From: a virus | Lineage: Duplodnaviria; Caudoviricetes | IMG/VR virus record: IMGVR_UViG_3300047160_014082 | Span: 1-64,000 of that record | Reading direction: 5' to 3' (one strand) | Length of the DNA stretch: 64,000 bases | Shown: positions 8,367 through 61,260 of the stretch, one piece after another | How the letters are laid out: the number at the start of each line of letters is the position of its first letter | Numbering within the stretch: the first letter of the stretch is position 1 | The notes under the pieces: generated by a model | Told to the model about the DNA's origin: nothing | The model's input: only the letters and a program-made list of their open reading frames with translations | The model's database searches: none | Program-made: the position numbers and the translations under genes

Positions 8367-8702
8367 ATGTCCGGCGGCGATCCCATCATGGGATTGTCCG
8401 GCTGGCCCTGGAGCGGAACGGGAAGCTTTGCTCTGGGTGGTATTCAGCTCAAGGCTGACAAGAATAACAGCGGCAATATCTACGTCGGCACTTCGGGTGG
8501 TATCACTAATCGCTCGGGAGGTTTCCTGGCTAGCGGAATGTCTGGCTTGTTGGATGGGATGCAGCTAGGACCGGGGGATGCCCTGTTTGTGCCTGCTACT
8601 CTTTGTGGACGCACATCGGGCAACTTGAACATCTTCGCGGTTGCTGACAGCGCTTGTTCTGGGCAGGCCCGGCTGTACTGGTGGCCCGAACTCATAGGGT
8701 GA
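8367..8702 (+). CDS. Small Ser-Gly-rich putative virion protein
   Basis: LKADKNNSGNIYVG motif; 10 of 12 Ser are followed by Gly; start may be GTG 8348 with a +1 shift. Confidence 0.7.
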   Translation: MSGGDPIMGLSGWPWSGTGSFALGGIQLKADKNNSGNIYVGTSGGITNRSGGFLASGMSGLLDGMQLGPGDALFVPATLCGRTSGNLNIFAVADSACSGQARLYWWPELIG

Positions 8703-8706
8703 TCCC

Positions 8707-9234
8707 ATGCCTGAGTACGTACGACCGGCCAAGCAACGAAGTTCGCTACGCAATGAGCTACGGCTCTGGCATCCGGGCGGCACGACAGGCTTTGTCGAGG
8801 ATGGGTTGGTCCTTTCGGATCGCTCCAAGGGAGCCACTATTTCCATCTGGCTGCCCGAGAACCGCAAGCCGGGGGTGTGGCTGAGCTGGTATAAGGTCGG
8901 CGGCCTGGACCGGCAGCTGATCTGGGTTGGAGAAGCCGGTGAGGTTCATGTGAGCTGGAACCGTGGCTTGCAATACATGATGTTCCCAGCGCCGTTGACG
9001 GAGCGTGTTCATGTAGTCATGGTCTACCAGGAAGGTCTTGAAATCTTCTATATCAATGGCCAGCAAGTAGACACGATGGTCTGTTCTCCCGTTGGGACCT
9101 GGGGGGATCGCTTGCGCGTTGGGGGTGGGGACTTCCTAGGTTGGCTCTATTGTGGCGTCTGGTTTCGTCTGCTCAGTCCGGAGGAAGTGGGTTGGCTGTG
9201 GAAGGGTGGCACCGGCCTGGACAGTCCCTTTTAG
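8707..9234 (+). CDS. LamG/concanavalin-like domain protein
   Basis: HVVMVY...IFYINGQQV...LRVGG...F.G....WFRLLSPEEV pattern. Confidence 0.6.
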   Translation: MPEYVRPAKQRSSLRNELRLWHPGGTTGFVEDGLVLSDRSKGATISIWLPENRKPGVWLSWYKVGGLDRQLIWVGEAGEVHVSWNRGLQYMMFPAPLTERVHVVMVYQEGLEIFYINGQQVDTMVCSPVGTWGDRLRVGGGDFLGWLYCGVWFRLLSPEEVGWLWKGGTGLDSPF

Positions 9235-9240
9235 GGGTGG

Positions 9241-10665
9241 GTGATGGCGTACACCGACTTTTACATGCAAAGTACGGGCAACGACCTGAACGCTGGCTCG
9301 ACCAGCGCCGACACGGCTGTTTATACGTCCACGGGCGGTAACTGGGATGGCACGAGTATCTTCACGCCTACGGATGGCTCGACTCCTGCTAACTCGGTGA
9401 ATATTGGGGATTGGGCGAGTATTTACCCCACGGGCAACACGGTCTCGGCTTATGTTGCTCAAGTCACAGCAGTTGGTGCGGGTGTTAATGGGACGATTAC
9501 TCTGAGCACTACGGCCAAATTTGGCACAGTGCCATCTGTCAATTCGGGCTCTCGTAACTGCAAGACCGGGGGAGCCTGGGCCAGCTTTGCTACGATGCCG
9601 AACTTGTTTGTAGCCAATACGCTCACCTTTTCCATGCGGGTGAATGTCAAGCAGGCGACCTATACAAACACGACGAATACGCGCACGAACGCTCTGAGCG
9701 GGACAGCTTCTTTCTCCCTTTGGTTTAGGGGTTACAACACCACCCCGGGGGATTGTGATACCAACCCGGCCCTGACCAAGCCTACGGTCAGCTTCACGAC
9801 GGGCCAGTACCTGATATCGGGTGATTTCAACATCACTTCGAATATCATCTTTACGGCAGCGCAGACGACCAACGGGACCGTGCGCGTCTCGGGCGCTACT
9901 ATGAATACCTTTATGCGCTGCCGGTTCTCTGGTACGGCGGCCAACGCCAATAGTCGAGCTTTCTTCTGTGGCTCGTTCAACGTGGTGTTCATCGCTTGTC
10001 AGTTTAACGTGACCAGCACGACGGTTACGGAAATGATCAGTACAACGGGCACGATGCTTCTGATTGACTGCTCCCTGAACGGTGCGGGCACGGGCGCCGG
10101 AACGGCCAATGGTATCACCACGTCGGGTGCTGTTATTGTTGCTACCGGTTGCGTCTTCAACAACATAGCTGCTCATTGCATCAGCTTTAGCGGTGCTACT
10201 TTGGGATTTGTTTGCAATAACAGTTACTACAATACCGGGGCCAACGGGGATGCCCTACGCTCGTCTAGTACGGCCATTGTCGTGTCCGTGAATAACATCT
10301 ACGCAAACATTGGTGGTTATGGGGTCAATAGTAGTGCGGCGGCTTCGGGCAAGATTGTGCGTAGCAATAACGACTCGTTCAGTGTGACTCTGGGCTCGGC
10401 TAATAACGTTGGGGATACCCCGGAATTCTCTCCCATCACGGATGGCTCTAGTCCTTACAACAATGCGGGCTCTTTGGACTTTTCGCTGGCGGCCATCACC
10501 AACGCCCGCGGTGGTGGTGCTCCGGGAGTGGGTGGTGCTACCCCTGGGACGTTTGAGGGCGAAACGTATACAAGCTATTTGGACAACGGCGCCGTACAGA
10601 ATCCGAATACTTTTCCTACTCCTCTTGGTGTTCTTATTATGAGTGGCAAGCTGCTCGGAGGTTAA
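9241..10665 (+). CDS. Putative virion fibre/spike protein with a beta-helix-like region
   Basis: Thr/Gly/Asn/Ser-rich, recurring CxF / NNxY strands, YLDNGAVQ near the end. Confidence 0.6.
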   Translation: MMAYTDFYMQSTGNDLNAGSTSADTAVYTSTGGNWDGTSIFTPTDGSTPANSVNIGDWASIYPTGNTVSAYVAQVTAVGAGVNGTITLSTTAKFGTVPSVNSGSRNCKTGGAWASFATMPNLFVANTLTFSMRVNVKQATYTNTTNTRTNALSGTASFSLWFRGYNTTPGDCDTNPALTKPTVSFTTGQYLISGDFNITSNIIFTAAQTTNGTVRVSGATMNTFMRCRFSGTAANANSRAFFCGSFNVVFIACQFNVTSTTVTEMISTTGTMLLIDCSLNGAGTGAGTANGITTSGAVIVATGCVFNNIAAHCISFSGATLGFVCNNSYYNTGANGDALRSSSTAIVVSVNNIYANIGGYGVNSSAAASGKIVRSNNDSFSVTLGSANNVGDTPEFSPITDGSSPYNNAGSLDFSLAAITNARGGGAPGVGGATPGTFEGETYTSYLDNGAVQNPNTFPTPLGVLIMSGKLLGG

Positions 10666-10668
10666 TCC

Positions 10669-13600
10669 ATGAAGCTTCCGAGTTATGTAGCGAATCAAGG
10701 TGGCGGTACTGGGGGCGGGGCGCAAGGGCCTCCGGGTCCTCCAGGTACGTTGTCGTCCGGGTCGGTGCAAGGGTTCTTCGGCGCTAGCGGTATGATCCTG
10801 TCCGGCACGGTCGGGGTCTATGACTTAGGCTCGGGTGCGGTCATTGCTGGCCAGCTTGGTTCCGGGGCCGTGCAGACTCAGAACATCGCATCCGGAGCCA
10901 TTAATCAGTTCAAGCTGTCGTCGGGTTGTGTAGTCTCGGGCGACATCGGCAACGCAGCGGTAGTGTCCGGTTCCATCGCTAGTGGCTCGGTAAGTCAGTT
11001 TGCTCTAAGTAGCGGCGCTGTCAATTCGGGTCAGCTTAACACAACTGGTACGCCGAGCGCAACGACGTTCCTGCGCGGTGATCTGGTTTGGGCTACTCCC
11101 CCGGGTGGTGTGAACTCGGGGGACATTGGCTCGGGCAAGATCGCCAGCGGTGCTGTGCAAGGCTTCTTCGGTACGGTGCGCAATATCGCATCGGGTACGG
11201 TCGGAGTATTTGACTTCGGTTCTGGAGCTGTCATCGCGGGCGCTGTGGGTTCGGGGGCGATCCAATCCCAGAATATTGCTAGTGGCGCTGTTGGTCAGTT
11301 TGCTCTTAGCTCTGGTGCTGTGAATTCGGGGGACATCAACGATGGCGCCGTAGTCTCGGGCTCCATCGCTTCTGGCCAGATCACCCTGTACCATATTGCC
11401 AGCGGTCAGCACGTTGCCGGTTCGGGTAACGAAGTTCAGTACAACATCAATGCGGGCTTCGCAGCGGACTCGGGCTTTACCTATCTGGGCTCGGGTGGTA
11501 TTCGCCAGCTGATGGTGCCGACGGTTTTCATCTACAACACCTTTGGCCTGGCGACGCGCTACATATCGGGCAATGCGACCCTGAGTGCTCCTAACTCGGG
11601 CCAGACGATCATCCTGGCGGATGCTACCAAGGGTAACATGACGATTACCCTGCCTGACCCGACTAACATGCCCGGTCAGGTTTACATCGTCAAGAAGATC
11701 GATGCTACGACTAATCAGGTCGGGGTGCGTGCTCCGGGTATTCAGCCCTTGGAAGGTAGTATTTCTACTATCTTCATGACTGTTCCCAACCAATGGATGG
11801 GAGTAGTTGCGGACTTCAACACCAACTCAGGTTGGTGGATCATCGACCAATCCCCTGCGGGTGCTACCCTATCCAGTGGTTCGGTAGGTTCGGGTATTGT
11901 AGCATCGGGGACCGTCCCGGGCTTTTTCGGTCCCTATCGTGGCATCATGTCTGGGACCGTGGGTGTTTTCGACTTCGGTTCTGGAGCAGTGATAGCTGGT
12001 ACGGTCGGGAGTGGTGCAATTCAGTCTGGCAACATTGCATCGGGTCAGATTGCCCAATTTCATCTGGCCAGCGGCGCGGTGAATTCTGGCCAGATTAACA
12101 CTACAGGCACGCCCAGTACATCTGTCTTCCTACGAGGTGACTTTGCCTGGGCGGCAGCGGGGGGCGGACTCGCTTCGGGCGCTGTTGGTTCAGGCTTCCT
12201 GGCTAGTGGTTCTGTTCAGGGGTTTTTCGGTGCTACACGGGACATCGCGTCGGGAACCGTGGGTGTATTTGATTTCGGCTCTGGTGCTGTTATTGCTGGG
12301 ACCGTTGGTTCTGGTGCTATACAGTCTGGTAATATTGCTAGCGGTGATATCGGAAGTTATCATCTGTCTTCTGGAGACATTATCGACATTGCCCAGTATG
12401 GGGCGCTGTACACGAGCGGTTTACAGCGCGTTTCCCCGGCGGTAATTACCAAGGAAACTATTTCTGGGGGACGGGCGGTCTCTATCGACGCTAGCGGTCA
12501 TCTTCAGATCGCCATGGCTAGCATACCCTCACGTATGCCGGCTGTGGGTGTGGTCGTCGATAACGTCCTGTCTGGCATCCAGGTCAATGCCTATACGTTC
12601 GGTTCCTTCCTGTTGACGTCAGGGATGATTGAATGGTCTGGGAACTACGGAGCGCAAGCCTATGTCGGCCGTTCCGGGCAGATCGTGTCCTGGTCCGGGG
12701 CTTGGTGGAACTCGGGTGGTTTCTTGTCTGGAGACTATTTCCAGGTTGTAGGTACTCTAGCTGGCTCGGGCCTGGTGGCTGTTGGTCTCAATGCCCCCAA
12801 TGCTTTTCCGATTGGAGTAGGGGATCCAACATTCATTGTGACCAGCGGTTTCATCGCATCGGGGGCCGTCGGTCCGTTTGCTTTGGCTAACAACGCTGTG
12901 CAGTCGGGGAACATCGCTAGCGGGGCGGTGAGTCAGTTCAAGCTGGCTTCGGGAGCGGTAAATTCGGGCCAGGTCGGTAGCGGCGCCATTATGGGCGAAG
13001 CTGGCGGTGGTGCTTTCAACATCGCTAGTGGTACTATCAACAACTTCGACATCGCCGCGGCTGGAGTACTGTCGGGTAATATCGCGTCGGGTCAAATTGC
13101 TCAGTTCCATCTAGCCAGCGGTGCGGTCAATTCGGGGCAGATCAACACTACGGGTACGCCTAGTACATCGGTCTTTCTGCGCGGTGATTTCAGCTGGGCA
13201 ACCCCAGCTGGTGGTGGCTTGGTATCGGGCTCTGTGCAGTCAGGGCACATCGCATCGGGTGCCGTGCAAGGTTTCTTTGGATCGACACGCAACATCGCAT
13301 CGGGAACAGTAGGAGCTTTTGACTTTGGCTCTGGCGCTGTTATGGCAGGCCAGATGGGTTCTGGCGCGGTGCAATCGGGTAACGTCGGCTCGGGTCAGCT
13401 GGGCGCCCCAGAACATTTCTCTTCCGGAGGTATCATCGATCGCGCCCGTTATGTGGTGCCTTTCCAGTCGGGCTATACCCGCATCGGTTCGGGTGGAGCT
13501 GTAACGGAAGAGAACATTTCGGGCATCCGCGCCGTTTGCATGCAGGTCTCCGGTTATCTGCGCGTTGCCATGGCCGGAACCAGTGGGCGCATGCCGGCTG

Positions 13601-14409
13601 TCGGTATCGTAATGGACAACATTGCCAGCGGCGGCGAATGTACCGTATTTACCGATGGCGTGTTCCAGGCAACTTCTGGCCTGGCGGACTACTCGGGCTA
13701 TCTAGGACAAACTCTGTTCGTCGGACGTTCTGGTAACATTGTCACCTCATCGGGTAGCTTCAACTCGGGCGGCTTGTTGTCTGGGGATATCTGGCAACCC
13801 ATCGGGACCGTCGTGCGGACGAGCGGATACTTCAAGGTCTCCGTTGCCGCCCAGATGGCTTTTCAGGTCGGCCTGGTCACCAGCGGTTTGATCGCTTCGG
13901 GCCAGATCTGGACGTACCACGTTGCTAGTGGGGCGGTCTTCCCCCGTGCTCAGGAAGTCTGTCCAACCTACTCCGGTACGTTCTCGACTCAGACGGCCGA
14001 AGAGCTGATTTCCGGCGTGCGTGCGGTGCAAGTGTCTTACTCGGGCAATATTCGTATTGCCATGGCCAGCATCCCGACGCGCATGCCGGCGGTTGGCATT
14101 GTCTTTGACAATATTTCTAGCGGCCAAGTAGCTAATGTCTTTACCATGGGCTTCCGGGCGGCCTTTGCCATCGCTTCGGGCGTAGTGGACTACTCGGGCT
14201 ATGTTGGCCGGCCCGTGTTTGTTGGTCGCTCAGGGCAGATTACTAATGCTTCCGGCTCGTTCTCGTCGGGTCTGTTCCTGTCGGGCGATCAAGGGCAGTT
14301 GGTGGGTATAGCGGCCAATAGCGGCGCCTTCTATTACAACGTGTTCCCGATTGCCTACTCAGGCGGCCCCGCGGCCATTGGTGGTTTGGGTACAGCTTCC
14401 CAGGGGTAA
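10669..14409 (+). CDS. Large head-fibre-like protein: xxSGx pentapeptide repeats plus three decoration-like domains
   Basis: Module TTGTPS..FLRGD..W...SG.VQGFFG..R.IASGTVG.FDFGSGAV repeated; three E.ISG.RAV...RMPAVG domains. Confidence 0.7.
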   Translation: MKLPSYVANQGGGTGGGAQGPPGPPGTLSSGSVQGFFGASGMILSGTVGVYDLGSGAVIAGQLGSGAVQTQNIASGAINQFKLSSGCVVSGDIGNAAVVSGSIASGSVSQFALSSGAVNSGQLNTTGTPSATTFLRGDLVWATPPGGVNSGDIGSGKIASGAVQGFFGTVRNIASGTVGVFDFGSGAVIAGAVGSGAIQSQNIASGAVGQFALSSGAVNSGDINDGAVVSGSIASGQITLYHIASGQHVAGSGNEVQYNINAGFAADSGFTYLGSGGIRQLMVPTVFIYNTFGLATRYISGNATLSAPNSGQTIILADATKGNMTITLPDPTNMPGQVYIVKKIDATTNQVGVRAPGIQPLEGSISTIFMTVPNQWMGVVADFNTNSGWWIIDQSPAGATLSSGSVGSGIVASGTVPGFFGPYRGIMSGTVGVFDFGSGAVIAGTVGSGAIQSGNIASGQIAQFHLASGAVNSGQINTTGTPSTSVFLRGDFAWAAAGGGLASGAVGSGFLASGSVQGFFGATRDIASGTVGVFDFGSGAVIAGTVGSGAIQSGNIASGDIGSYHLSSGDIIDIAQYGALYTSGLQRVSPAVITKETISGGRAVSIDASGHLQIAMASIPSRMPAVGVVVDNVLSGIQVNAYTFGSFLLTSGMIEWSGNYGAQAYVGRSGQIVSWSGAWWNSGGFLSGDYFQVVGTLAGSGLVAVGLNAPNAFPIGVGDPTFIVTSGFIASGAVGPFALANNAVQSGNIASGAVSQFKLASGAVNSGQVGSGAIMGEAGGGAFNIASGTINNFDIAAAGVLSGNIASGQIAQFHLASGAVNSGQINTTGTPSTSVFLRGDFSWATPAGGGLVSGSVQSGHIASGAVQGFFGSTRNIASGTVGAFDFGSGAVMAGQMGSGAVQSGNVGSGQLGAPEHFSSGGIIDRARYVVPFQSGYTRIGSGGAVTEENISGIRAVCMQVSGYLRVAMAGTSGRMPAVGIVMDNIASGGECTVFTDGVFQATSGLADYSGYLGQTLFVGRSGNIVTSSGSFNSGGLLSGDIWQPIGTVVRTSGYFKVSVAAQMAFQVGLVTSGLIASGQIWTYHVASGAVFPRAQEVCPTYSGTFSTQTAEELISGVRAVQVSYSGNIRIAMASIPTRMPAVGIVFDNISSGQVANVFTMGFRAAFAIASGVVDYSGYVGRPVFVGRSGQITNASGSFSSGLFLSGDQGQLVGIAANSGAFYYNVFPIAYSGGPAAIGGLGTASQG

Positions 14410-14412: not shown

Positions 14413-17400
14413 ATGCTTCAGCCAAATGTGCTACGCTCTGGGATCGTAACCAGCGGTTTCATCGGCAATGCCGCCGTGAACTCGGGCAACATCGCTTCGG
14501 GTGCTGTTGGTCTGTTCGCTTTGGCTAGCGGTGCGCTAGGCTCAGGAGCGCTTGTTTCTGGGAGTATCACAAGTTTCAATCTGTCGTCGGGGTGTGTGCG
14601 CAGTGGACACGTCGGCAATGCGGCCATCACTTCTGGCAATATTGCTAGTGGTCAAGTCGGGTCTCCCCACCTAGCCATCTACGCCGTGCAGTCAGGCAAC
14701 ATCGCATCCGGGGCTGTCAATCAATTCGCGTTCTGTTCCGGAGCTGTCCTGTCCGGGGACGTTGGTAACGCGGCTGTTACATCGGGCAATATCGCATCGG
14801 GGCAGATTAGTCTCTACCATCTGGCTTCTGGCCTGTTGTCCTTTTCGGGCTCGGCCCTGTCGGGCTCTATTGGCAATTTCCAGATCGCTTCCGGGGGGTT
14901 GGGTTCGGGCAGCATCGCTTCGGGAGCTATCGGCTGGCCTCTAATTGCGAATGCGGGGGTGCTCAGTGGTAATATTGCATCCGGATCCGTTAGTGCGTTC
15001 CATCTTGCGAGCGGTTTGGTTGGCGTGTCGTCAGGCAGTATCCAAAGCGGGCTTATCGGCAATGCTGCCGTGGTGTCTGGTAGCATCGCCTCCGGGCAAG
15101 TTGCTTGGCCCCATCTGGCTTCTGGTGCGGTTCGGAGCGGATGTCTTGGCGATGCTAGCGTTAATCCTGGTAGTATTGCTAGCGGAACTATTGGCAATCA
15201 GCACATTGCTAGTGGTGGCCTTGGCTCTGGCTCCCTGGGTTCTGGTCAGGTTGGGCAGTTTCATCTGTCTTCTGGCGCTGTATCTAGCGGGAAGGTCGGC
15301 AACGCCGCCGTCTCTTCGGGCAACATTGCTAGCGGTTCCATCGGAACCGTTCACATTTGTTCCGGAGGGTTGCTGTCGGGAGCTATCGGTTCCGGCCAAA
15401 TCGGACTTATCCATCTACAATCCGGAGTCACGCCTCTGACTTCGGGTGCCGTTCAAAGCGGCTTTATTGGTAACGTCGCTGTTGTATCTGGCAGTTTCGC
15501 CAGTGGTGCTATTAGTCAGTTTGCGCTAGCATCCGGAGCCGTGAACTCCGGCCAGATCAACAACGCCGCGGTAAACTCTGGAACCATTGCATCGGGATGT
15601 GTTGGTACGGTGCATATCAGCAGCGGGGGGCTAGGTTCAGGCGCCATCGGTTCGGGTCAGATCAGCTCGCCGCACCTGGCGAGCGGGGCCGTCCTTTCAG
15701 GAGACATCGGCAATGCAGCTATTGCGAGTGGCTCACTGGCTAGCGGTATTGTTGGGAACGTGCATATCAATAGCGGTGGGCTGGGCTCTGGGTCCGTCGG
15801 CAGCGGCCAGATCGGTTGGCCACACCTTGCTTCTGGTGCTGTTCGCAGCGGTGCTATTGGAAATAACGCTGTGGTTAGTGGCTCTGTGGCCAGTGGACAA
15901 CTCGGCACCGTTCATATCCAATCCGGAGGACTCCAATCAGGATCCATCGGTTCCGGGACTCTGATCTTCCTAAACTTCGTTAGTGGTGCTCTAGTACCCA
16001 ACTCGGGGGCCGTGCAGCAATTCCAGTTGGCTTCGGGCTCTGTAAATTCGGGGCAAGTCGCCAGCGGCGCCATCCTGGGCTTTAGCGTTGCTACCGGGCG
16101 CAACATTGCTAGTGGCACCATTGGCTGGGCAGATCTGGGCTCGGGGTCCGTCCAGAGTGGCCATCTGGTCTCAGGCCTGTTGAACACCGTTCATTTGTCG
16201 TCGGGGGTGGTGCAGAGCGGCCAGATTGGTAATAACACTGTCAATTCGGGCAACATTACCAGTGGCGCCATTGGTGATGTTCACATTACCAATTTTGGTA
16301 TTCTGGGCCGGTCGCTGGCGTCGGGGGCGGTGACATCCCTCAAGATCAATTCGGGCTCTATCGTCTCGGGCCTGATGGCATCGGGCTCTGTTGCGGGTTC
16401 GGTATCGAGTGGCGATTGGCACATTGCCAGCGGGACCATCGGCACCAACGATATCGGTTCCGGTCAGATCAATACGGGCAATATCGCCAGTGGCGCCATC
16501 AAGAATTACCATCTGCAATCGGGGATTGTTGATGTAACCAAGATCGCTAGCGGGGCTGTCGGTTCCGGGCAGCTAGCAACGTTAGGAACGCCTTTATCGG
16601 GCGCGTTCTTGCGGGCGGATTTCAACTGGATTCCGTTTACGTCGGGCTTCACGTCCGGCATGATCCAATCGGGCTTGCTCTCTTCCGGAACCGTTCAGGG
16701 GTTCTTTGGTGCAACTCGACAAATTGCAAGTGGCACTGTGGGAGTCTTTGATTTTGGCAGTGGTGCTGTCGTTGCTGGAACCATTGGCTCTGGCGCTGTG
16801 GGTAGTGGGAATATTGCTAGTGGTTCTATCGGAGTCAACCACCTCTCCTCCGGATCTGTAACTAGTGGTGCTATTGCCAGTGGTCAAGTTGGCCAGTTCC
16901 ATCTGTCGTCGGGTTGTGTAAACTCAGGCCAGATCGGCAACAACGCCGTCGTTTCGGGCTCGTTGGCTTCGGGCCAGATCCATCGTTACCACATGGCTAG
17001 CGGCTGCTTGGTTGAGCCGATCCAGGCCGGGCAAGCGATATCGGGCATCATCGCCGTGACTATGGCCAGCGGTTTCACAACTATTGTCGTCCCCGCCGAG
17101 CGCCAAAGTGGTCTGCGCTTGCCGGCTATCGGGGTTGTCCCTGGGACTTTGAACTCAGGGGATGCCGGCTGGATGGTTCGTTGGGGCTATGTAACCGGGC
17201 CGTCTGGAACCATCGCTAGTGGTTTCATCGGCTCCTACCTGTATGTCGGTAGCGGAGGTCTTATCGTCAATCAGTCGGGATTCTGTGGTGGTAACAGTTC
17301 GGGGGCGCCTACGCTGTCGGGTAGCCTGGTACAACGTATCGGCCTAGCGATTTCGGGTGGCATCTATGTCATGCCCGAGTTCACGCCCAGCTCGGGTCTC

Positions 17401-17427
17401 TACAGCGGCTTGTTGGGTCAGTATTAG
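14413..17427 (+). CDS. Second head-fibre-like paralogue, almost entirely [ILV]xSGx pentapeptides
   Basis: Strict 5-residue register over ~850 aa; shares the FLRAD/VQGFFG module and the C-terminal RLPAIG domain with 10669. Confidence 0.7.
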   Translation: MLQPNVLRSGIVTSGFIGNAAVNSGNIASGAVGLFALASGALGSGALVSGSITSFNLSSGCVRSGHVGNAAITSGNIASGQVGSPHLAIYAVQSGNIASGAVNQFAFCSGAVLSGDVGNAAVTSGNIASGQISLYHLASGLLSFSGSALSGSIGNFQIASGGLGSGSIASGAIGWPLIANAGVLSGNIASGSVSAFHLASGLVGVSSGSIQSGLIGNAAVVSGSIASGQVAWPHLASGAVRSGCLGDASVNPGSIASGTIGNQHIASGGLGSGSLGSGQVGQFHLSSGAVSSGKVGNAAVSSGNIASGSIGTVHICSGGLLSGAIGSGQIGLIHLQSGVTPLTSGAVQSGFIGNVAVVSGSFASGAISQFALASGAVNSGQINNAAVNSGTIASGCVGTVHISSGGLGSGAIGSGQISSPHLASGAVLSGDIGNAAIASGSLASGIVGNVHINSGGLGSGSVGSGQIGWPHLASGAVRSGAIGNNAVVSGSVASGQLGTVHIQSGGLQSGSIGSGTLIFLNFVSGALVPNSGAVQQFQLASGSVNSGQVASGAILGFSVATGRNIASGTIGWADLGSGSVQSGHLVSGLLNTVHLSSGVVQSGQIGNNTVNSGNITSGAIGDVHITNFGILGRSLASGAVTSLKINSGSIVSGLMASGSVAGSVSSGDWHIASGTIGTNDIGSGQINTGNIASGAIKNYHLQSGIVDVTKIASGAVGSGQLATLGTPLSGAFLRADFNWIPFTSGFTSGMIQSGLLSSGTVQGFFGATRQIASGTVGVFDFGSGAVVAGTIGSGAVGSGNIASGSIGVNHLSSGSVTSGAIASGQVGQFHLSSGCVNSGQIGNNAVVSGSLASGQIHRYHMASGCLVEPIQAGQAISGIIAVTMASGFTTIVVPAERQSGLRLPAIGVVPGTLNSGDAGWMVRWGYVTGPSGTIASGFIGSYLYVGSGGLIVNQSGFCGGNSSGAPTLSGSLVQRIGLAISGGIYVMPEFTPSSGLYSGLLGQY

Positions 17428-20619: not shown

Positions 20620-21231
20620 ATGATGAACTTCAAGCAAACGAACCAGAACCAGGGGGACGTGTACAACGTCCCCCACCTCTACACCAGGCCGCTCTGTTGG
20701 GCGGGCTTTCTGGATATGGATGGAACTCTGGTAGATTTTCGCGCGGGCGCCCTCAAGGCCCACGGCTGGACCTTGCCCGATGACGATGGCGAGTACGAAT
20801 TTTGGAAGAAATTTGAAGTTACGGCTTCCGACTTCTGGGGGCCGCTACGCAACGAAGAGTTTTGGGCCAATCTGCAACCAACTCCAGAAGCGTTCAATCT
20901 GGTGTTGTTGGCCGAGAAGTATTTTGGCGTCGATAACGTCTTCCTCTGTTCCAGTGGTGCCTGCCCGCGTTCTGGGATCGGCAAGCTGATGTGGATCGAA
21001 AAGTACCTGCCCCACTATCGGGGCAGAGTCCAGCTGTTGGGGCCGGATAAGTACAAGATGGCCCGTCCGGGGTATGTACTTATCGATGATTACGATTTGT
21101 ACATTGAACAATGGCGTATGGCAGGCGGACACGCCATCACCTTCCCGCGTCCCTGGAACACGATGCATGCCGCGTCCGTTTCCCAGTTGCGTGTTGTCGA
21201 GCAAGGGCTAAAACTCTACATGGGAGGCTGA
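20620..21231 (+). CDS. HAD-family 5'(3')-deoxyribonucleotidase-like protein
   Basis: FLDMDGTLVDF, FWANL.P, K..WIEKY, VLIDD motifs. Confidence 0.85.
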   Translation: MMNFKQTNQNQGDVYNVPHLYTRPLCWAGFLDMDGTLVDFRAGALKAHGWTLPDDDGEYEFWKKFEVTASDFWGPLRNEEFWANLQPTPEAFNLVLLAEKYFGVDNVFLCSSGACPRSGIGKLMWIEKYLPHYRGRVQLLGPDKYKMARPGYVLIDDYDLYIEQWRMAGGHAITFPRPWNTMHAASVSQLRVVEQGLKLYMGG

Positions 21232-21233
21232 CT

Positions 21234-36316: not shown

Positions 36317-36322
36317 GACCCG

Positions 36323-37794: not shown

Positions 37795-37819
37795 AGTCCT
37801 TTGTGACTGTATGGGAGAG

Positions 37820-37859
37820 CCGTCCTGGGGTGGTCGCGCATCCCAGGACGGATCTTTTT
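37820..37859 (+). terminator. Intrinsic terminator-like hairpin
   Basis: 13-bp stem CCGTCCTGGGGTG/CATCCCAGGACGG then ATCTTTTT. Confidence 0.65.
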
Positions 37860-37922
37860 GGTCCGGTTCGCACCAGAGCCGGACCGGCAAACCAATGCCA
37901 CCTAGCACAAAGGATCGGACCC

Positions 37923-54649: not shown

Positions 54650-57589
54650 ATGCCGATCATCTGGAACCAAAACACCGCTTTTGAACTCAGCTTTAACGGG
54701 ATCCCTTTCTTTGCTGATGATGCCAAAGCCTACCGCATGCCCAGCAAGGTATCGGACTACATAGGCCAAGAACGCTCCCCCGTCCAGCAACAGCAGCCCC
54801 TGGAAAACCTGGTCGAAGAATTAGACCGGCTGCTGCCGTTCCGCTACCTGGACGACTACTATGAGGTGGCGTCCTTCCCCGGCCGTAATCTGGCTGGTAT
54901 TGCGCGGCAGACTGTCGATGAGTACAAGCTTAATCCGGAAATCAAAATAGGAGAGTTCTTTTATCCCAATGGTGCTTCGCGCTGGAGCGTGTTTCGTGGC
55001 CTGATGACCAGCAGCCAGGTACGGGCGCTGATCCGCACGACCCAGCTACCGATGACCAGCGGCAGCTATTCGACGTCGGGACAACGAGCCGATTCTTTGG
55101 GCAACGTCCCGGGTATCTTCCACATCAAGGCTCTGCCTCTGATCTTTGCACCCAATACACCGCAAGACGCTCTCGGAGCTGCCCCCTATTCGATCATCAC
55201 CAATATGTACATGCTGCCGCCGCGGCCCCTGGCGGAACATGGTGGCAACTTCGATGGCCTGTATCTTATCACCCTGGTTGATGAGCGCTTTTGGTGGCAA
55301 TTCTCCCCCGTGAGCCTGATGGCTCCTCAATTTCCGCACGACGCTTTCGATACGCTACTAGCACGCCTGACCATCGGCGAATCGAGCTGGCAACAGATCT
55401 TGTTCTCCCTGGCCGAAGCTCTGGGGATCTTTCTCTTGCTCGATCCCATCGACCCGGCCTATGTCGTACCGGAGCGGGATTCACCGTTCTGGTGCAACTA
55501 CGAGAACGCTGCCCAGCTGCTGGACGCGGTAGCGGCTAATGTCGGCGCCGTGTTCGTCCGGAAATTCAACGGCACCTACATTCTGCGCAGCACAACTCAA
55601 TCTATTTCCACGGTGCAAACCAACCTGGCCGAGCTGGGCGGGATTGTCACCAGTGGACTTCAGCGCCTGCGCACGGCCGGCGGGGACTTGTTCTCGCCAT
55701 CGGGTAGTGCCTTACCCGTGGGGGATCTGACGACGGCGCGGAACTTTGCCATCCCGGCCAGCGTTACGGTGACCTTTCCGAGCTACGTTTACAACGATGC
55801 TCCTGTACCTCACTTCTACAACAAACGCACCATGCCCCCGGATGCTACCCTCTGGCATCAGGAGAGCTTTGGGGGTGTCTGGCCTCTTACAGTTGGTATC
55901 AAGTCTGGGGGGCCGTATGTCTCGGGTCTAGGCGGGACCGGACCGCAACAATCGGGATGGTTGATTTCCGGAGTGACTGGACTGCCCATTGATTTCTCGG
56001 GTGGTTACTCCGTCGTCCTGCGCACCACGGCCAAGGCGCTGTTCTCGGGGGAACGGGCTTGTGAGCCGGCTTCGGGCTTGACCCATCTGGACGTCCATCC
56101 GGCCAATGAAAGCGGCTTGACTGCTCTGGCAACGGCCCTGGCAGTCAACTACTACACAACCCAGGTTGCCGTAGCTCTGGACGAAGTATTTCCCGGGACC
56201 TTTCTTTGGGATCCGGAGGGCTTTCACGATCTGCTTTACACCTACTCACCAAGGCAAAGACTAGCGACGACGCGGGTGATGCGCAGTCAGCCCTGGAATC
56301 AGAAAGTAGAAGAGTACCAATACGGCACACCCCCCTTTAGCGGCTTCGGGGGCACGGTCAAAGGGGTGGGTGGTCCCTTGCCAGCGCAGAGCTGGACGGA
56401 CAAGGATCGCCTGAGCGGCACCTACGCCCAGGGCTCGGGCTTCTGTGCGTCGGGGGGTAGTGGACTGATCTTTACCACATTGGCCAACAACTACTTCTCG
56501 GGGACGTTCACCTTCATCTTCGTGGATGAAGAGACCGAAGCCATTGCCGTTGCTGCTCAGGACTACTTTCCAACGGGAAATCGCTGGAAAGGCCAGATCC
56601 TTAGCAACCTGTACCAGGATATCAGTCTGGCCATCCAGTACAGCGCTACTATATCGGGCTATTGCAATAGCGGTGTACTGGTCTCGGGGATTGACCTAGG
56701 GGATCCGAATATCCAATCTGGATATGTCATAGAGAATTTGTTGTTTGAGGGCACCAGCGGCGGCCGGAATCTGGTAGGGGGTGCGCAGAATCCTCCCTTC
56801 CTGTCCATCTACTGGCGCGGTATCGACGGCACCAAGCCCTTCCCGATTCATCACAGCGGTGCCATCCTGACCATGATCAACCCGAACACGATGTACGGGG
56901 CCAACGTGGTCAAACACGGCAAGATGCAATACTCGTTCCCGGACGATTGGACCGCGGGCGGCGCCAAGGCGGTGCATGTCGTGCCGCAAATGCAGACTGT
57001 GCGCGTCCATAGCGAAAGTGGCATTTACATCAACAACCTGCGTCACTACTCGGGGGCCGTATATGCCTACGATACCGCCCAGCGTAGCAGGAACATGTCC
57101 GGCCTGTTCACCAGCGGCATAAGTCCTGTATCTGGCTGGCAAGGCTTATCTGGACAAGTCTACGGAACCGATCCGCATGTTAGCGGCCTGCCCAAACAAG
57201 AGCCCTGTTGGATCGTGGAGCGCAACAACTACCCGCTGACGTCGGGGATCTATTATGATGGTCAGCTCGTGGGCTATAGCGCCAAGTTCTCGGGGATTCT
57301 GGCTTCCGACGAGAGTGGGGGAGCTGTCTTCCCAGGCACAAATACCCAGGTCGGCAGCGGTAACTATGTGCCTGGCACGGCCATATCGGGCACGGCCCCT
57401 GTCTACCTGGTCAACTGGGATCCCCCCGAAGTGCAGATGGTGCGCATTGTCGGCCCGGGGGATTTTGGCTTTCTGGATGCTTACGTACAAAAGCCAAAGG
57501 TCGATCCCGTTACGGGCATCTGGAACGGTACTGATTGGGTGGATGTGGAACGAATTCTCTTCCAGGATGCGAACTTCACTGGTGGGTAG
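54650..57589 (+). CDS. Large tail tip/hub protein, SG-enriched
   Basis: YLITLVDERFWW; QLLDAVAANVG (hub-like); about 36 SG counted by eye, mostly in the C-terminal 60%. Confidence 0.6.
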   Translation: MPIIWNQNTAFELSFNGIPFFADDAKAYRMPSKVSDYIGQERSPVQQQQPLENLVEELDRLLPFRYLDDYYEVASFPGRNLAGIARQTVDEYKLNPEIKIGEFFYPNGASRWSVFRGLMTSSQVRALIRTTQLPMTSGSYSTSGQRADSLGNVPGIFHIKALPLIFAPNTPQDALGAAPYSIITNMYMLPPRPLAEHGGNFDGLYLITLVDERFWWQFSPVSLMAPQFPHDAFDTLLARLTIGESSWQQILFSLAEALGIFLLLDPIDPAYVVPERDSPFWCNYENAAQLLDAVAANVGAVFVRKFNGTYILRSTTQSISTVQTNLAELGGIVTSGLQRLRTAGGDLFSPSGSALPVGDLTTARNFAIPASVTVTFPSYVYNDAPVPHFYNKRTMPPDATLWHQESFGGVWPLTVGIKSGGPYVSGLGGTGPQQSGWLISGVTGLPIDFSGGYSVVLRTTAKALFSGERACEPASGLTHLDVHPANESGLTALATALAVNYYTTQVAVALDEVFPGTFLWDPEGFHDLLYTYSPRQRLATTRVMRSQPWNQKVEEYQYGTPPFSGFGGTVKGVGGPLPAQSWTDKDRLSGTYAQGSGFCASGGSGLIFTTLANNYFSGTFTFIFVDEETEAIAVAAQDYFPTGNRWKGQILSNLYQDISLAIQYSATISGYCNSGVLVSGIDLGDPNIQSGYVIENLLFEGTSGGRNLVGGAQNPPFLSIYWRGIDGTKPFPIHHSGAILTMINPNTMYGANVVKHGKMQYSFPDDWTAGGAKAVHVVPQMQTVRVHSESGIYINNLRHYSGAVYAYDTAQRSRNMSGLFTSGISPVSGWQGLSGQVYGTDPHVSGLPKQEPCWIVERNNYPLTSGIYYDGQLVGYSAKFSGILASDESGGAVFPGTNTQVGSGNYVPGTAISGTAPVYLVNWDPPEVQMVRIVGPGDFGFLDAYVQKPKVDPVTGIWNGTDWVDVERILFQDANFTGG

Positions 57590-57594
57590 CTTCT

Positions 57595-58407: not shown

Positions 58408-58410
58408 ACT

Positions 58411-60216
58411 ATGGATACTCCAACTACAGCAAATACAGCTCCGAAAAAAATCAGATCCTTGGATTGTGAGTGCCCAGCTCCGGGCTATTGCCCGAAATAT
58501 GAACGCAAGATGCTAGGACGCTTATGGGAGCTGTGTAGCGGTCATTGCCACCCGGAGCGTCCCTGCACCCGGGATATGATTCTGTCCTATCGGAAACACT
58601 TCGTTGAACTCTATTTAGGCTTGAGTAAGGAGGAAATCGACCGTCTGGAAGTAGAAACAATCGTTGAGGAGCATAAACGCACACCAAGTCCGGCTCCTAG
58701 AGAAATGCGCCGGGCGCTGCCTTGTGCCTACCTAGGACCTGAAAAGGACCAGAATGTCTGCGGGAGCTGCACAAATAATACTCGTGTCAAGGTCTTTTCT
58801 TGTTCTAATCCTGGCAAGCCTGATGGCCGCACTACGTTACGATTTTGCTGGGATCATTGCCCAATTTATACCCCTGAATACGGATCCTGGAACGATCTGC
58901 CCGAACCTGTGCAGATGCCATCGGAGAATATGAGCCTGGTGTCTGCTCTCAAGCTTCTGGATTCTCCCCCCATCGTTCCCCAAGGAAGCCAGGCTGAATG
59001 GTCCAGCTGGAAGGTAGTATCGGACGCTCACATAATTGGTGCTGATGCTGCTGCGGCGAGGGCGCTGCGCCTATCCTGTCCTAGCCTGCCCCAGGAAAAG
59101 GGTATTGTTATGGGTGTGGGGGGAACAGACTTGTATACTCAAGCTTGGGTTTGCACCAAGCGCCTGCGCGACCTGGGTTGTAAGCTGCCGATTCAGTGGT
59201 GGTATATCGGGCTTGGGGAAATGGACCCGACGATGATCGACCTGGTACAAAGCGAGTTGAACGTCGAATGCGTTAACGCTCGGGACCATACAGCACTACA
59301 TCCGGCGCGGATCCTGGCCGGCTGGGAACTCAAGCCTTACTCTATTATCCATTCTCCTTTCTACCAGGTCTTGTATCTGGATGCAGACAATACCCCCTGC
59401 CGGGATCCTACTTACTTGTTCGATGCTATGTTATTCCAAGAGCTTGGCGCTGTGTTCTGGCCCGACATCCCACCGCCCAACCGGATGGAATGGATTCCGC
59501 CCAAAGCTTGGGAATCGTGTGGTATGGCTTACATCAGCAGCCGCGCTTTTGAAACGGGCCAACTTATGGTAGACAAGCGCAAATGTTGGCCCGCGCTACA
59601 ACTTACCATGTGGATCAATGAGCACTCGGATCGTTTCTACCGGGTCGTGTATGGGGATAAGGATACTTTCCTGCTAGCCTGGACAAAGACGAATACCCGC
59701 TATGCCATGCCTGGGCGTGGCGCTGATGACAACGGTGCCGGCTTGACTCATTTTGATCTGCAAGACAATCGAATCTTTCAGCATCGCTGTCAACACAAAT
59801 GGCGCTATCAAGGACCGAATCGCAGCCCCCGTACCTTCTATTTTGGTGCGGAATGCCTGCAAATCATCGATGGCCTATGCCAGCGTTGGTGTGGGCGTCC
59901 TTGGGATCCTCAGTATATGAGCCCGGATGAAGACAGGCTAGCAGATGAAGTAGTCGGCCTATATCAATACGAGCGCATTGGTTTGAATATCCGGCCCTTG
60001 CAATTGATGCAGAATGGGAAGATAGGAACAGGACGTGCGGGCTGTGAAGATTATTGGAGTTTGTATATCTTGAATGGAGTTCCGACGCTGATTATCGGCG
60101 GGGGTGGACGAGCAACGATGTTCTTGACCGGGGGTTTGAACCGTGGGATTTGGCGCGGGCGTTGGGAATACTACGAGCGCTGCCCCGTGGCTTTGGTAAA
60201 ATTGGAGGGGTGCTAA
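58411..60216 (+). CDS. GT71/Mnn2-like mannosyltransferase domain with a Cys-rich N-terminus
   Basis: GIVMGVGG, LR.LGC.LPI, GWELKPYSIIHSPF..VLYLDAD, AVFWPD, ETGQL..DK, YGDKDTF..AW. Confidence 0.8.
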   Translation: MDTPTTANTAPKKIRSLDCECPAPGYCPKYERKMLGRLWELCSGHCHPERPCTRDMILSYRKHFVELYLGLSKEEIDRLEVETIVEEHKRTPSPAPREMRRALPCAYLGPEKDQNVCGSCTNNTRVKVFSCSNPGKPDGRTTLRFCWDHCPIYTPEYGSWNDLPEPVQMPSENMSLVSALKLLDSPPIVPQGSQAEWSSWKVVSDAHIIGADAAAARALRLSCPSLPQEKGIVMGVGGTDLYTQAWVCTKRLRDLGCKLPIQWWYIGLGEMDPTMIDLVQSELNVECVNARDHTALHPARILAGWELKPYSIIHSPFYQVLYLDADNTPCRDPTYLFDAMLFQELGAVFWPDIPPPNRMEWIPPKAWESCGMAYISSRAFETGQLMVDKRKCWPALQLTMWINEHSDRFYRVVYGDKDTFLLAWTKTNTRYAMPGRGADDNGAGLTHFDLQDNRIFQHRCQHKWRYQGPNRSPRTFYFGAECLQIIDGLCQRWCGRPWDPQYMSPDEDRLADEVVGLYQYERIGLNIRPLQLMQNGKIGTGRAGCEDYWSLYILNGVPTLIIGGGGRATMFLTGGLNRGIWRGRWEYYERCPVALVKLEGC

Positions 60217-60217
60217 A

Positions 60218-60904
60218 ATGGGGCTGTGCTTCCGACCAAATACCTGGGATCAAGCCATCTGGGAAAGCGTGTCTCTGCGGAACGAGTACCAACTACCCGA
60301 TTCTCTGGTAGGCCGCAGTGTGGTAGATATTGGCGCGCATATTGGTTCTTTCGCCGCTGCCTGCTTGCGCCGGCACGCTGCCAAGATCTACTGTTACGAG
60401 GCCAATTGGGACAATGTAAAGTGCATGGTTCATAATCTGCATTCTGCTCTGGAGGCTTGGCAGACGGTAGAAATACATCACTTGGCAGTCTGGAGAGCCA
60501 ATGAAAATCCTGGCTATATGCGTCTAGTCGAGCCAGCTGGCGTAGATTGCAATACGGGTGGACGGTTTGTTACTACGGATAATCTAGGGATGGAAACTGT
60601 GGGGGTTGTGGGTATTGATGAAGTGCTACAACGGACAGCTACGCGCAGTTCTACAAATGGCTGCCCAAATCGAGTGGGCTTGCTAAAGATGGATTGCGAA
60701 GGAGCGGAATGGGACCTGTTGCGGACCAGCCAATGTTTGGATCTGGTAGATGAAGTAGTGGGAGAGTATCACTTGGTTCCGAGACAGGAAGAAGAACGGG
60801 GCAGCGTGGAAAACCTAATGACCTACTTACACCGAGCTGGCTTTCAGACACGTACTAAGCTGTCCTCGACTTACTTGGGATTATTCTGGGCCTGGAGGGG
60901 TTAA
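60218..60904 (+). CDS. FkbM-like methyltransferase
   Basis: VVDIGAHIGSF, CYEA, LLKMDCEGAE, VGEYH. Confidence 0.88.
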   Translation: MGLCFRPNTWDQAIWESVSLRNEYQLPDSLVGRSVVDIGAHIGSFAAACLRRHAAKIYCYEANWDNVKCMVHNLHSALEAWQTVEIHHLAVWRANENPGYMRLVEPAGVDCNTGGRFVTTDNLGMETVGVVGIDEVLQRTATRSSTNGCPNRVGLLKMDCEGAEWDLLRTSQCLDLVDEVVGEYHLVPRQEEERGSVENLMTYLHRAGFQTRTKLSSTYLGLFWAWRG

Positions 60905-60921
60905 TTGGAGGAGGATGAGAC

Positions 60922-61260
60922 ATGCCTGTCGTACAAAGTTTCCAATTCATTCGGTTCCAGGACGGCCTCCTGGAAATTGGTATGCTGCCGTCTGAGCCCA
61001 TTTCCGGTTGGAGCATCAACTTTCAGGTCTTTACCCGGCCTGGGGGTACAGTACCGCTCATCAACAAGTACCTGGCATCGGGCTTCATCAACGGCGAGAG
61101 CGGCATGTACCTGGTGAATGGGGCCGCGGGTGTGTACTCGGTGGCGCTGCACGCCGGCGATACTAGTGGTTTTCTGAACGCAAATTACTATTACACCAAT
61201 ACGCGCACGGATTCGGGGAACGTCAAGGAATTGTCGCGGGGATTCATCACGATGAGGTGA
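60922..61260 (+). CDS. Ig-like (BppU-N-like) putative virion protein, SG-enriched
   Basis: Beta-sandwich pattern; 5 of 10 Ser are followed by Gly. Confidence 0.5.
   Translation: MPVVQSFQFIRFQDGLLEIGMLPSEPISGWSINFQVFTRPGGTVPLINKYLASGFINGESGMYLVNGAAGVYSVALHAGDTSGFLNANYYYTNTRTDSGNVKELSRGFITMR

What the first reader, a model, noticed from the sequence alone, without database searches (positions are those of the whole stretch)
8367..61260. Candidate new system: a Ser-Gly sequon across accessory virion proteins, paired with a phage glycan pathway
Seen (hand counts of Ser followed by Gly): 10/12 in 8367, 9/17 in 37923, 11/20 in 47666, 5/10 in 60922; 6 SG in 21234, ~36 in 54650, and one every 5-10 residues in the two fibres (10669, 14413). 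In contrast, the UDP-sugar dehydrogenase has 0 SG and the MCP has 1. The enriched proteins are unrelated folds, so this is convergent and not a single repeat. The same genome encodes five glycosyltransferases, a UDP-glucose-dehydrogenase-family enzyme and six methyltransferase domains. Established: Ser-Gly is the O-glycan attachment dipeptide of eukaryotic proteoglycans, UDP-glucose dehydrogenase makes UDP-glucuronate, and some mycobacteriophages glycosylate their virions. Inference: the phage may install a dense, methylated O-glycan coat on SG sites of exposed proteins, for shielding, adhesion or mimicry of the host surface.
Basis: partly seen in the sequence, partly recalled or inferred. Interest (0 to 1): 0.85.

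Follow-up and report, generated by a model that had tools for sequence, protein, structure and literature searches.

The report
Ser-Gly motif on phage virion proteins
A subset of the outer particle proteins of this uncultured phage and its relatives carries about four times too many Ser-Gly pairs, at fixed loop positions; these may be attachment sites for the phage's own sugar-adding enzymes, but no chemistry shows that yet.

Summary
Against shuffled composition, Ser-Gly (SG) is enriched only in two fibres (109 and 124 SG, z about 18), the baseplate hub (36, z 11) and four small proteins (z 3.8-5.7). The rest of the genome is at 0.97x. The signal is at protein level, one-directional and Ser-specific (Thr-Gly 0.5x). 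It is conserved: 10 SG sites are 97-100% invariant in 119 homologues of the capsid decoration protein, and both Ser codon families occur at each site.

The families are unrelated (jellyroll, VgrG-like hub, five-residue-periodic fibre). The same fibre repeat in other phages mostly uses other small residues in that slot. Four glycosyltransferase (GT) genes and at least five methyltransferase (MT) genes lie inside the structural gene block, and a GT+MT pair sits between two SG-rich genes.

The glycan-sequon reading is plausible (about 0.4) but unproven. A Clostridia phage with no annotated GT has SG-rich fibre repeats. One lineage lost every hub SG yet kept them in the decoration protein. No complete GT-free relative could be examined. 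A purely structural turn motif is nearly as likely.

This scan has flagged the same pattern in at least 23 other phage genomes. The closest precedent is Ser-only heptosylation of Ser-Gly sites in the TibA autotransporter.

The parts
6658..8358 (+). Portal protein; SG-poor control (0 SG, 2.9 expected)
   Evidence: Pfam Phage_portal E 5e-18; SG count
8367..8702 (+). 111-aa SG-rich protein beside the fibre genes (10 SG from 12 Ser)
   Evidence: z 5.7; homologues in G001 and G002 keep 7 of the 10 sites; no Pfam or PHROG family
10669..14409 (+). Fibre 1, built on a five-residue period (S-G-x-hydrophobic-x); 109 SG
   Evidence: phrog_892 tail fibre; SG spacing 5 or 10; SG fills 58% of in-register pentad slots
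14413..17427 (+). Fibre 2, same repeat; 124 SG
   Evidence: phrog_13518 and phrog_892; 63% of pentad slots are SG
21111..21902 (+). 263-aa protein (true start probably 21234) with 6 SG
   Evidence: The first 5 sites are kept in all 3 homologues and the sixth in 2 of 3; homologues have z 2.9-4.7
24237..25295 (+). GT4-family glycosyltransferase a, conserved in G001, G002 and G005
   Evidence: Pfam Glycos_transf_1 and Glyco_transf_4; best solved relative is alpha-1,2-glucosyltransferase 7fg9, E 9e-22; homologues
26419..27537 (+). GT4-family glycosyltransferase b, conserved in G001, G002 and G005
   Evidence: Pfam; solved relatives include 6kih, 7qsg and PimA; homologues
27836..28582 (+). Class I SAM methyltransferase
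   Evidence: Pfam Methyltransf_11 E 2e-17
28847..31984 (+). B12-binding radical-SAM C-methyltransferase (KedN5 family) interrupted by an intein
   Evidence: Pfam B12-binding, Radical_SAM and Intein_splicing; NCBIfam NF033712 E 1e-77
32279..33682 (+). Nucleotide-sugar dehydrogenase (0 SG)
   Evidence: Pfam UDPG_MGDP_dh_N and central domain; TIGR03026
33679..34653 (+). GT2-family glycosyltransferase; its orthologue lies directly upstream of the hub gene in G001/L004 and L003
   Evidence: Pfam Glycos_transf_2; positions of orthologues
34793..37759 (+). Two multi-domain methyltransferase genes (34793-36316: Methyltransf_11 plus FkbM; 36323-37759: Methyltransf_11); fused into one gene of about 620 aa in relatives
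   Evidence: Pfam; homologues in G001, G002, G003 and G005
37803..38414 (+). 203-aa SG-rich protein (9 SG) directly after the methyltransferase genes
   Evidence: z 4.6; 7 of 9 sites kept in all 3 homologues
46142..47605 (+). HK97-type major capsid protein; SG-poor control (1 SG)
   Evidence: Pfam Phage_capsid E 4e-27
47666..48223 (+). Capsid decoration/cement protein with a jellyroll-like fold; 11 SG, 10 of them 97-100% invariant in 119 homologues
   Evidence: AlphaFold model pLDDT 70; weak best fold match to the BPP-1 cement protein 3j4u_H, E 0.013
54650..57589 (+). Baseplate hub/spike protein (VgrG, gp27, Mu gp44-like); 36 SG, about 12 positionally conserved
   Evidence: model pLDDT 63; Foldseek 7aef_q E 3e-7, 3cdd, 9ki1; ESM Atlas structure rows VgrG and GpP-like
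58411..60216 (+). Glycosyltransferase with a Mannosyl_trans3 (PF11051) domain, downstream of the hub gene
   Evidence: Pfam E 1e-28; homologues next to the hub gene in L057, L067, L077 and G001
60218..60904 (+). FkbM-family methyltransferase between the GT gene and the next SG-rich gene
   Evidence: Pfam Methyltransf_21 E 4e-7, above the cut-off
60922..61260 (+). 112-aa SG-rich tail-module protein (5 SG; two sites kept in 17 of 17 homologues)

Best explanation
Ser-Gly, usually as S-G-x-hydrophobic at a loop or strand edge, is a Ser-specific surface motif. It is selected for in a defined subset of exposed virion proteins: fibres, baseplate hub, capsid decoration protein and several small proteins. 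Most likely it marks serines that receive an O-linked, partly methylated glycan from the phage's own late-expressed enzymes. On this reading a GT4 pair plus GT2 and PF11051-type GTs build the glycan, and SAM and B12-radical-SAM methyltransferases methylate the sugars. The sequence facts are shown: enrichment, Ser specificity, conservation, loop location and gene context. The inferred steps are that the serines are modified at all, which enzyme starts the chain, which sugar is used, and what the coat does.
For: (1) SG is 4.0x expected in five non-fibre proteins and 3.7x in the fibres, against 0.97x elsewhere. Thr-Gly, Asn-Gly and Asp-Gly are depleted and Gly-Ser is not enriched. (2) Selection acts on serine itself. 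Ten sites are 97-100% SG in 119 decoration-protein homologues whose mean identity is 55%, which is half of all invariant columns. TCN and AGY Ser codons both occur at every conserved site. (3) The fold does not require it. The homologous fibre repeat in P-GSP1, DSS3_VP1 and a Christensenellales phage has SG in 1-3% of the same slots, against 58-64% here. Hub homologues P0033 and G004/L074 keep the fold-level alignment with 0 of 12 SG sites. (4) The enriched families are unrelated to each other. (5) In the models, 45 of 47 SG lie outside helices and strands. (6) Gene context supports a link. GT4a, GT4b and the multi-MT gene are conserved in G001, G002 and G005, inside a co-directional structural block. 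The order hub, unknown gene, GT, FkbM MT, SG protein is seen at 54650-61260. GT or MT genes lie beside the hub gene in at least six lineages, and the GT2 orthologue alternates between the island and the hub. (7) There is a precedent. TibC heptosylates Ser313 and Ser322 of TibA, which lie in NSGG and VSGT, on Ser but not Thr (PMC4358343).
Against: There is no chemical evidence. Terrisporobacter phage TVCOM_ph1, with no annotated GT, has a fibre with 34% SG pentads and z 5.4. Near-total positional invariance fits a structural or assembly role better than a shield. The G004/L074 lineage lost all hub SG sites but keeps 12 SG in its decoration protein, so there is no genome-wide switch. The GTs are generic, and their nearest solved relatives act on small molecules or polysaccharides. 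Having a GT next to the hub gene goes with hub SG excess only weakly (one-sided p 0.059, lineages not independent). Other proteins show no SG avoidance (0.97x). Phage GT4 enzymes can also glycosylate DNA (PMC13326640).
Confidence: 0.4

Rival explanations
1. SG is a purely structural device with no modification. On this view it is the lineage's preferred way to build exposed tight turns and strand starts in beta-rich virion proteins, with Ser capping the turn and Gly taking the unusual backbone angle. It may be chosen over Asn-Gly and Asp-Gly because those pairs deamidate or isomerise in long-lived particles.
For: SG sits at loops and strand or helix edges; Ser488 opens a helix. Positions are nearly invariant, as for core structural residues. 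Gly is often kept where Ser is lost (6-8 of 12 sites in P0033 and P0035). Asn-Gly is 0 observed against 20.6 expected in the fibres. The Terrisporobacter phage, which has no annotated GT, uses SG in 34% of pentads. The SG-poor hub of G004/L074 coexists with an SG-rich decoration protein.
Against: This does not explain why Thr, Asn, Asp or Gly almost never replace Ser at about 10 sites across 119 sequences. It does not explain why unrelated folds in one genome converge on a single dipeptide while the MCP, portal and enzymes do not. It does not explain why the same fibre scaffold elsewhere uses many other pairs.
Confidence: 0.35
2. The serines are modified, but not by these GTs or not with sugar. 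Candidates are a host enzyme, phosphorylation, acylation, or another activity carried by the neighbouring polyvalent protein.
For: Ser specificity and codon-family switching point to hydroxyl chemistry without naming the adduct. SG-rich fibre repeats exist in a phage with no annotated GT.
Against: No candidate enzyme was identified. The GT and MT genes are the only conserved modification genes in the structural block.
Confidence: 0.1
3. The GT/MT island is unrelated to the SG motif. It would glycosylate phage DNA or remodel a host surface polysaccharide.
For: Phage GT4-like enzymes glycosylate 5-hydroxy- or hydroxymethyl-pyrimidines in DNA, and RL38J1 gp151 has the same best solved relative, 7fg9, as GT4a here (PMC13326640). 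The GTs look like polysaccharide or small-molecule enzymes.
Against: G000 has no thymidylate-synthase-type, ThyX or TET/JBP homologue, although the TET/JBP model hit none of the control genomes either, so that search is not informative. Relatives carry ordinary ThyX (G001, G005) or ThyA (G002) far from the island. The island and the GT+MT pair lie among virion genes on the same strand.
Confidence: 0.15

Closest known systems
Bacterial autotransporter heptosyltransferases (TibC, AAH) acting on TibA and AIDA-I
   Same: Many serines, not threonines, are O-glycosylated at turns of a repetitive beta-structure. The mapped TibA sites Ser313 and Ser322 lie in NSGG and VSGT, which are Ser-Gly (PMC4358343). 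A cytoplasmic GT-B enzyme acts on a surface adhesin.
   Different: No GT9/TibC-type gene is present in G000, G001, G002, G003 or G005. The candidate enzymes here are GT4, GT2 and PF11051 types. The targets are phage virion proteins of several folds, and no modification has been demonstrated.
Mycobacteriophage virion glycosylation (Freeman et al. 2023, known here only through citing papers PMC12619734 and PMC11256854)
   Same: Phage-encoded GTs put glycans on capsid and tail proteins.
   Different: In that system glycans are reported at the C-termini of the capsid and tail-tube subunits. Here the MCP is SG-poor and the candidate sites are internal loops of the fibres, hub and decoration protein. 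The primary paper was not held.
SdgA/SdgB on Ser-Asp repeats and GtfA/GtfB on serine-rich repeat adhesins (my own knowledge)
   Same: A pair of GT4-family enzymes glycosylates serines defined by a very short repeated context on surface adhesins.
   Different: Those targets are disordered repeat regions. The only link found here is a weak generic hit of GT4b to the SdgB model (E 3.5e-4, 19 bits against a cut-off of 800), so membership is not supported.
Eukaryotic proteoglycan xylosylation at Ser-Gly
   Same: The acceptor dipeptide is Ser-Gly, and a UDP-sugar dehydrogenase supplies the pathway.
   Different: It is a secretory-pathway system with acidic flanking residues. No related xylosyltransferase was found here. 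The flanks here are hydrophobic or small residues.
Five-residue-periodic phage fibre repeat (phrog_892 and phrog_13518; for example P-GSP1, S-TIP37, DSS3_VP1)
   Same: The two fibres share this repeat scaffold.
   Different: The first two positions of each pentad are mixed small residues in those phages (1-3% SG) but 58-64% SG in this clade.

Membership tests
BAHT (TibC/AAH) protein O-heptosylation system | GT9-like heptosyltransferase gene | tested here: not met
   PF01075 found nothing in G000, G001, G002, G003 or G005, while 4 control genomes were hit
BAHT (TibC/AAH) protein O-heptosylation system | Ser-only acceptor sites in Ser-Gly context at turns of repetitive beta-structure | tested here: met
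   SG about 4x, Thr-Gly 0.3-0.5x; loop and edge location; TibA sites NSGG and VSGT. This is sequence context only; modification was not tested.
Phage virion glycosylation (mycobacteriophage type) | Phage-encoded GT genes | tested here: met
   GT4 x2, GT2 and a PF11051 GT, conserved in relatives
Phage virion glycosylation (mycobacteriophage type) | Glycan chemically detected on virion proteins | not testable with these tools
   Needs mass spectrometry or glycan staining of virions
Phage virion glycosylation (mycobacteriophage type) | Acceptor region at the C-terminus of the capsid and tail-tube subunits | tested here: not met
   The MCP has 1 SG and no Ser-rich tail. The candidate sites are internal loops of other proteins.
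Phage DNA glycosylation (hypermodified pyrimidine) | Pyrimidine hydroxylase or hydroxymethylase (thymidylate-synthase homologue, or TET/JBP) encoded near the GTs | tested here: not met
   None in G000, but G000 is only 73% complete and the TET/JBP model hit no control genome. Relatives have ThyX or ThyA far from the island.
phrog_892-type tail fibre repeat | Profile match and five-residue hydrophobic periodicity | tested here: met
   E 1e-42 and 6e-19; SG spacing 5 or 10; tblastn matches to fibre proteins of cyanophages and others
VgrG / gp27 / Mu gp44 baseplate hub | Hub fold | tested here: met
   Foldseek E 3e-7 to 2e-4 against contractile injection system (CIS), MuSo2, Mu and T6SS hubs, on a model of moderate quality, pLDDT 63; ESM Atlas structure rows agree
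Jellyroll capsid cement/decoration protein (BPP-1 type) | Jellyroll fold and a gene directly after the MCP gene | tested here: inconclusive
   The gene position is met. The fold match is weak (3j4u_H, E 0.013, TM 0.33-0.42, model pLDDT 70).

The most novel reading that the evidence does not exclude
A widespread clade of uncultured phages, with hundreds of relatives in groundwater, soil and other metagenomes, uses a minimal Ser-Gly(-x-hydrophobic) sequon. Phage-encoded GT4, GT2 and PF11051 enzymes would use it to place methylated O-glycans at fixed loop positions on fibres, baseplate hub and capsid decoration proteins. That would be a virion glycosylation code functionally parallel to autotransporter heptosylation but built from unrelated enzymes.
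Probability: 0.35. Interest if true: 0.8.

Novelty: new variant of a known kind. Interest (0 to 1): 0.55.

Why it matters
If the serines are glycosylated, this would be a sequence-readable sequon for phage virion glycosylation. Glycan-coated particle proteins could then be predicted directly from metagenomes. It would extend virion glycosylation well beyond mycobacteriophages, and it would give a defined enzyme and acceptor set for engineering glycan coats on phage particles. If they are not glycosylated, the invariant Ser-Gly turns are still an unexplained, strongly selected design rule of exposed phage proteins. Possible reasons worth testing are chemical stability or assembly.

Tried and rejected
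1. A DNA-motif origin was rejected: all six Ser codons and all four Gly codons are used.
2. A single shared repeat or paralogy among the small proteins was rejected (hhalign).
The contigs of the SG-free hub homologues P0033 and P0007 therefore could not be fetched. P0007 is not in the phage collection.
4. The portal has no tblastn match in the phage collection. The single-sequence hub scan of viral contigs found nothing; the alignment-based scans worked.
5. G004 first looked like a control free of both GTs and SG. Its contig starts at the hub gene, so the head, fibre and GT region is missing. The sister contig L074 carries an SG-rich decoration protein. It was rejected as a control.
6. G006, a distant relative with 42% MCP identity, has neither GT4 nor SG-rich proteins. 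It is too distant and only 73% complete, so it carries little weight.
7. The MCP family shows SG at 0.38x. Many dipeptides are equally skewed in this closely related family, so this is inconclusive as evidence of sequon avoidance.
8. GT adjacency against hub SG excess gave p 0.059, not significant.
9. Sequence searches of solved structures for the fibre, the hub and the 58411 GT found nothing.
10. The Freeman 2023 paper is not held.
11. Complex prediction was not used, because transient enzyme-substrate pairs are a poor use of it.
Full report
WHAT THE WINDOW IS. The window is the first 64 kb of an 83-kb phage contig (CheckV estimates 73% completeness). Almost all genes from 152 to 61652 lie on the + strand. 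In order they are: portal (6658), a small SG-rich protein (8367), two giant fibres (10669, 14413), a glycan and methylation island (24237-37759), another SG-rich protein (37803), a polyvalent protein, a large protein at 42030 that an earlier first-reader note takes to contain the prohead protease (not tested here), an HK97-type major capsid protein (MCP, 46142), a decoration protein (47666), tail genes, a baseplate hub (54650), a glycosyltransferase (GT, 58411), an FkbM methyltransferase (MT, 60218) and a last SG-rich protein (60922).

THE OBSERVATION. I shuffled each ORF's own composition 2000 times. Seven ORFs stand out. They are the fibres (109 and 124 SG against 28 and 35 expected, z about 18), the hub (36 against 8.3, z 10.8), and 8367, 37803, 47666 and 60922 (z 3.8-5.7). 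ORF 21111 is weaker (z 2.2). The MCP (1 SG), the portal (0) and the sugar dehydrogenase (0) are at or below expectation.

Pooled over the five non-fibre proteins, SG is the only enriched dipeptide (71 against 17.9, z 12.5). Thr-Gly (0.51x), Asn-Gly (0.56x), Asp-Gly (0.74x) and every other Ser-X pair are depleted. The remaining proteome has SG at 0.97x. All six Ser codons and all four Gly codons encode the pair, so the signal is at protein level.

WHAT THE PROTEINS ARE.
- The 47666 protein folds as a beta-sandwich (pLDDT 70). Its best, weak, match is the jellyroll cement protein of phage BPP-1. Together with its position after the MCP gene, this makes it a capsid decoration protein.
- The 54650 protein is a VgrG, gp27 or Mu gp44-like hub (model pLDDT 63; Foldseek E down to 3e-7; ESM Atlas rows agree).
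- The fibres match tail-fibre PHROGs. They have a strict five-residue period in which S-G occupies the first two positions and a hydrophobic residue the fourth.
- The five small families have no detectable similarity to one another.

CONSERVATION.
- The hub has 63 homologues at 28-40% identity, and most are SG-enriched (z 4-12). About 12 SG sites are positionally conserved, up to 44 of 49 sequences.
- The decoration protein has 119 listed homologues. Ten SG sites are 97-100% invariant and make up half of the invariant columns.
- In the families of 60922, 37803, 8367 and 21111, most SG sites are kept in all or nearly all homologues, at only 33-56% overall identity.
- At every conserved site, both Ser codon families (TCN and AGY) occur among homologues. 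Serine itself is therefore under strong purifying selection.
- In five large IMG/VR relatives fetched whole (G001-G005, GC 45-56%), G001, G002, G003 and G005 each carry several of the same orthologous families in SG-enriched form. G001 carries extra SG-rich genes between the portal and the fibres. G004 has none that pass the threshold; its contig starts at the hub gene.

IS SG REQUIRED BY THE FOLDS? Mostly not.
- The homologous fibre repeat in cyanopodovirus P-GSP1, roseophage DSS3_VP1 and a Christensenellales phage has SG in only 1-3% of in-register pentad slots. Those phages use TA, DS, SA, DG, AN or AG instead. This clade has 58-64%.
- Hub homologues P0033 and G004/L074 align throughout yet retain 0 of 12 SG sites, with D, K, E, N or A in place of Ser. 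P0007 retains 2 or 3.
- In the two models, 45 of 47 SG lie outside helices and strands, often in low-confidence loops.

THE GLYCAN GENES.
- Pfam supports four GTs: GT4 at 24237 and 26419, GT2 at 33679, and a PF11051 GT at 58411.
- It also supports a nucleotide-sugar dehydrogenase, four SAM-MT genes, and a KedN5-family B12 radical-SAM C-methyltransferase split by an intein.
- GT4a, GT4b and the multi-domain MT are conserved in G001, G002 and G005. GT2 is conserved in G001, G002 and G003.
- The GT2 orthologue lies in the island in G000, G002 and G003, but directly upstream of the hub gene in G001/L004 and L003.
- PF11051-type GTs or FkbM MTs flank the hub gene in G000, L057, L067, L077, L003 and L080.
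- In the window, a GT and an FkbM MT lie between the hub gene and the SG-rich 60922 gene.
This context is the best argument that the enzymes act on virion proteins.

THE PRECEDENT. TibC heptosylates TibA at Ser313 and Ser322, which lie in NSGG and VSGT, on serine but not threonine (PMC4358343). That matches the Ser-only, Gly-following pattern here. No GT9 gene exists in these phages, so this is a functional analogy, not family membership.

WHAT GOES AGAINST THE SEQUON READING.
1. Nothing chemical is known.
2. Terrisporobacter phage TVCOM_ph1 is a 41.5-kb temperate phage with no annotated GT. Its fibre has 34% SG pentads and z 5.4.
3. The G004/L074 lineage lost all hub SG sites, yet its decoration protein has 12 SG. 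Loss is therefore protein-specific, not the genome-wide relaxation expected after losing a trans-acting enzyme.
4. Near-absolute positional invariance is more typical of structural residues than of a glycan shield.
5. The GTs are generic.
6. GT adjacency predicts hub SG excess only weakly (p 0.059).
7. Every relative that covers the island region has both features.

RIVALS.
- A purely structural turn motif is almost as likely (0.35). It could be a chemically stable substitute for the deamidation-prone Asn-Gly, which occurs 0 times against 20.6 expected in the fibres.
- DNA glycosylation by the island is a real alternative for the GT genes (PMC13326640). However, G000 has no pyrimidine hydroxylase homologue, and relatives carry ordinary ThyX or ThyA far from the island.
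- Another modification, or a host enzyme, remains possible.

PRIOR NOTES OF THIS SCAN. The same idea has been raised for at least 23 other phage genomes, and follow-ups reached similar verdicts of partly supported. One of those windows, e1-5745212, is my relative G001: its coordinates match the SG-rich ORFs I computed. I treated these notes as leads only. The TibC paper came from them, and I read it myself.

VERDICT. The glycan-sequon interpretation is the single best explanation (about 0.4) but is unproven. If true, it would be a new variant of known protein O-glycosylation and virion glycosylation systems.

Noticed in passing
window 28847-31984: The B12 radical-SAM C-methyltransferase (KedN5 family) is interrupted by an intein (Pfam Intein_splicing over residues 434-774). 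The G005 homologue at 26101 is shorter (about 600 aa).
   Followed up: partly
window 62424-62858 (- strand): A 144-aa ORF with a hydrophobic N-terminal half ends in a short tail carrying three SG (z 3.65).
   Followed up: no
window 8707-9234: A 175-aa protein between the SG-rich 8367 gene and the fibre genes has a weak concanavalin-A-like lectin/glucanase match (Laminin_G_3, E 9e-5, below the cut-off) and 0 SG.
   Followed up: no
window 17436-20612: A 1058-aa protein directly after the fibres has a hydrazine-synthase-alpha-like middle domain (PF18582, E 1e-8) and is not SG-enriched (4 against 5.4).
   Followed up: no
G001 36691-40799 (loci L013-L014): Relative G001 has an expanded set of SG-rich genes between the portal and the fibre, for example 304 aa with 24 SG and 184 aa with 11 SG. 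These are absent from the window's genome.
   Followed up: partly
L110 17387-18370 (Terrisporobacter phage TVCOM_ph1): The tail fibre of a temperate Clostridia phage with no annotated glycosyltransferase carries the same five-residue repeat, with SG in 34% of slots. It is a useful cultured system for testing whether SG serines are modified by host enzymes.
   Followed up: partly
L047 (Planctomycetota MAG chromosome OY970367.1, 3371571-3392906): A distant hub homologue (27% identity) with tail-gene neighbours lies in a 6.5-Mb Planctomycetota chromosome. It may be a prophage and a hint at the host range of the wider group. It shows no SG enrichment.
   Followed up: no
window 10669-17427: The fibres also over-use His-Leu (17 against 2.1 expected) at regular repeat positions (...HLASG...), and Asn-Gly is entirely absent (0 against 20.6).
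   Followed up: no
P0309 (portal homologue, 889 aa): Some portal homologues are much longer (about 890-2200 aa). P0309 appears to carry an insertion that interrupts the portal match (two matched stretches). Its nature was not checked.
   Followed up: no
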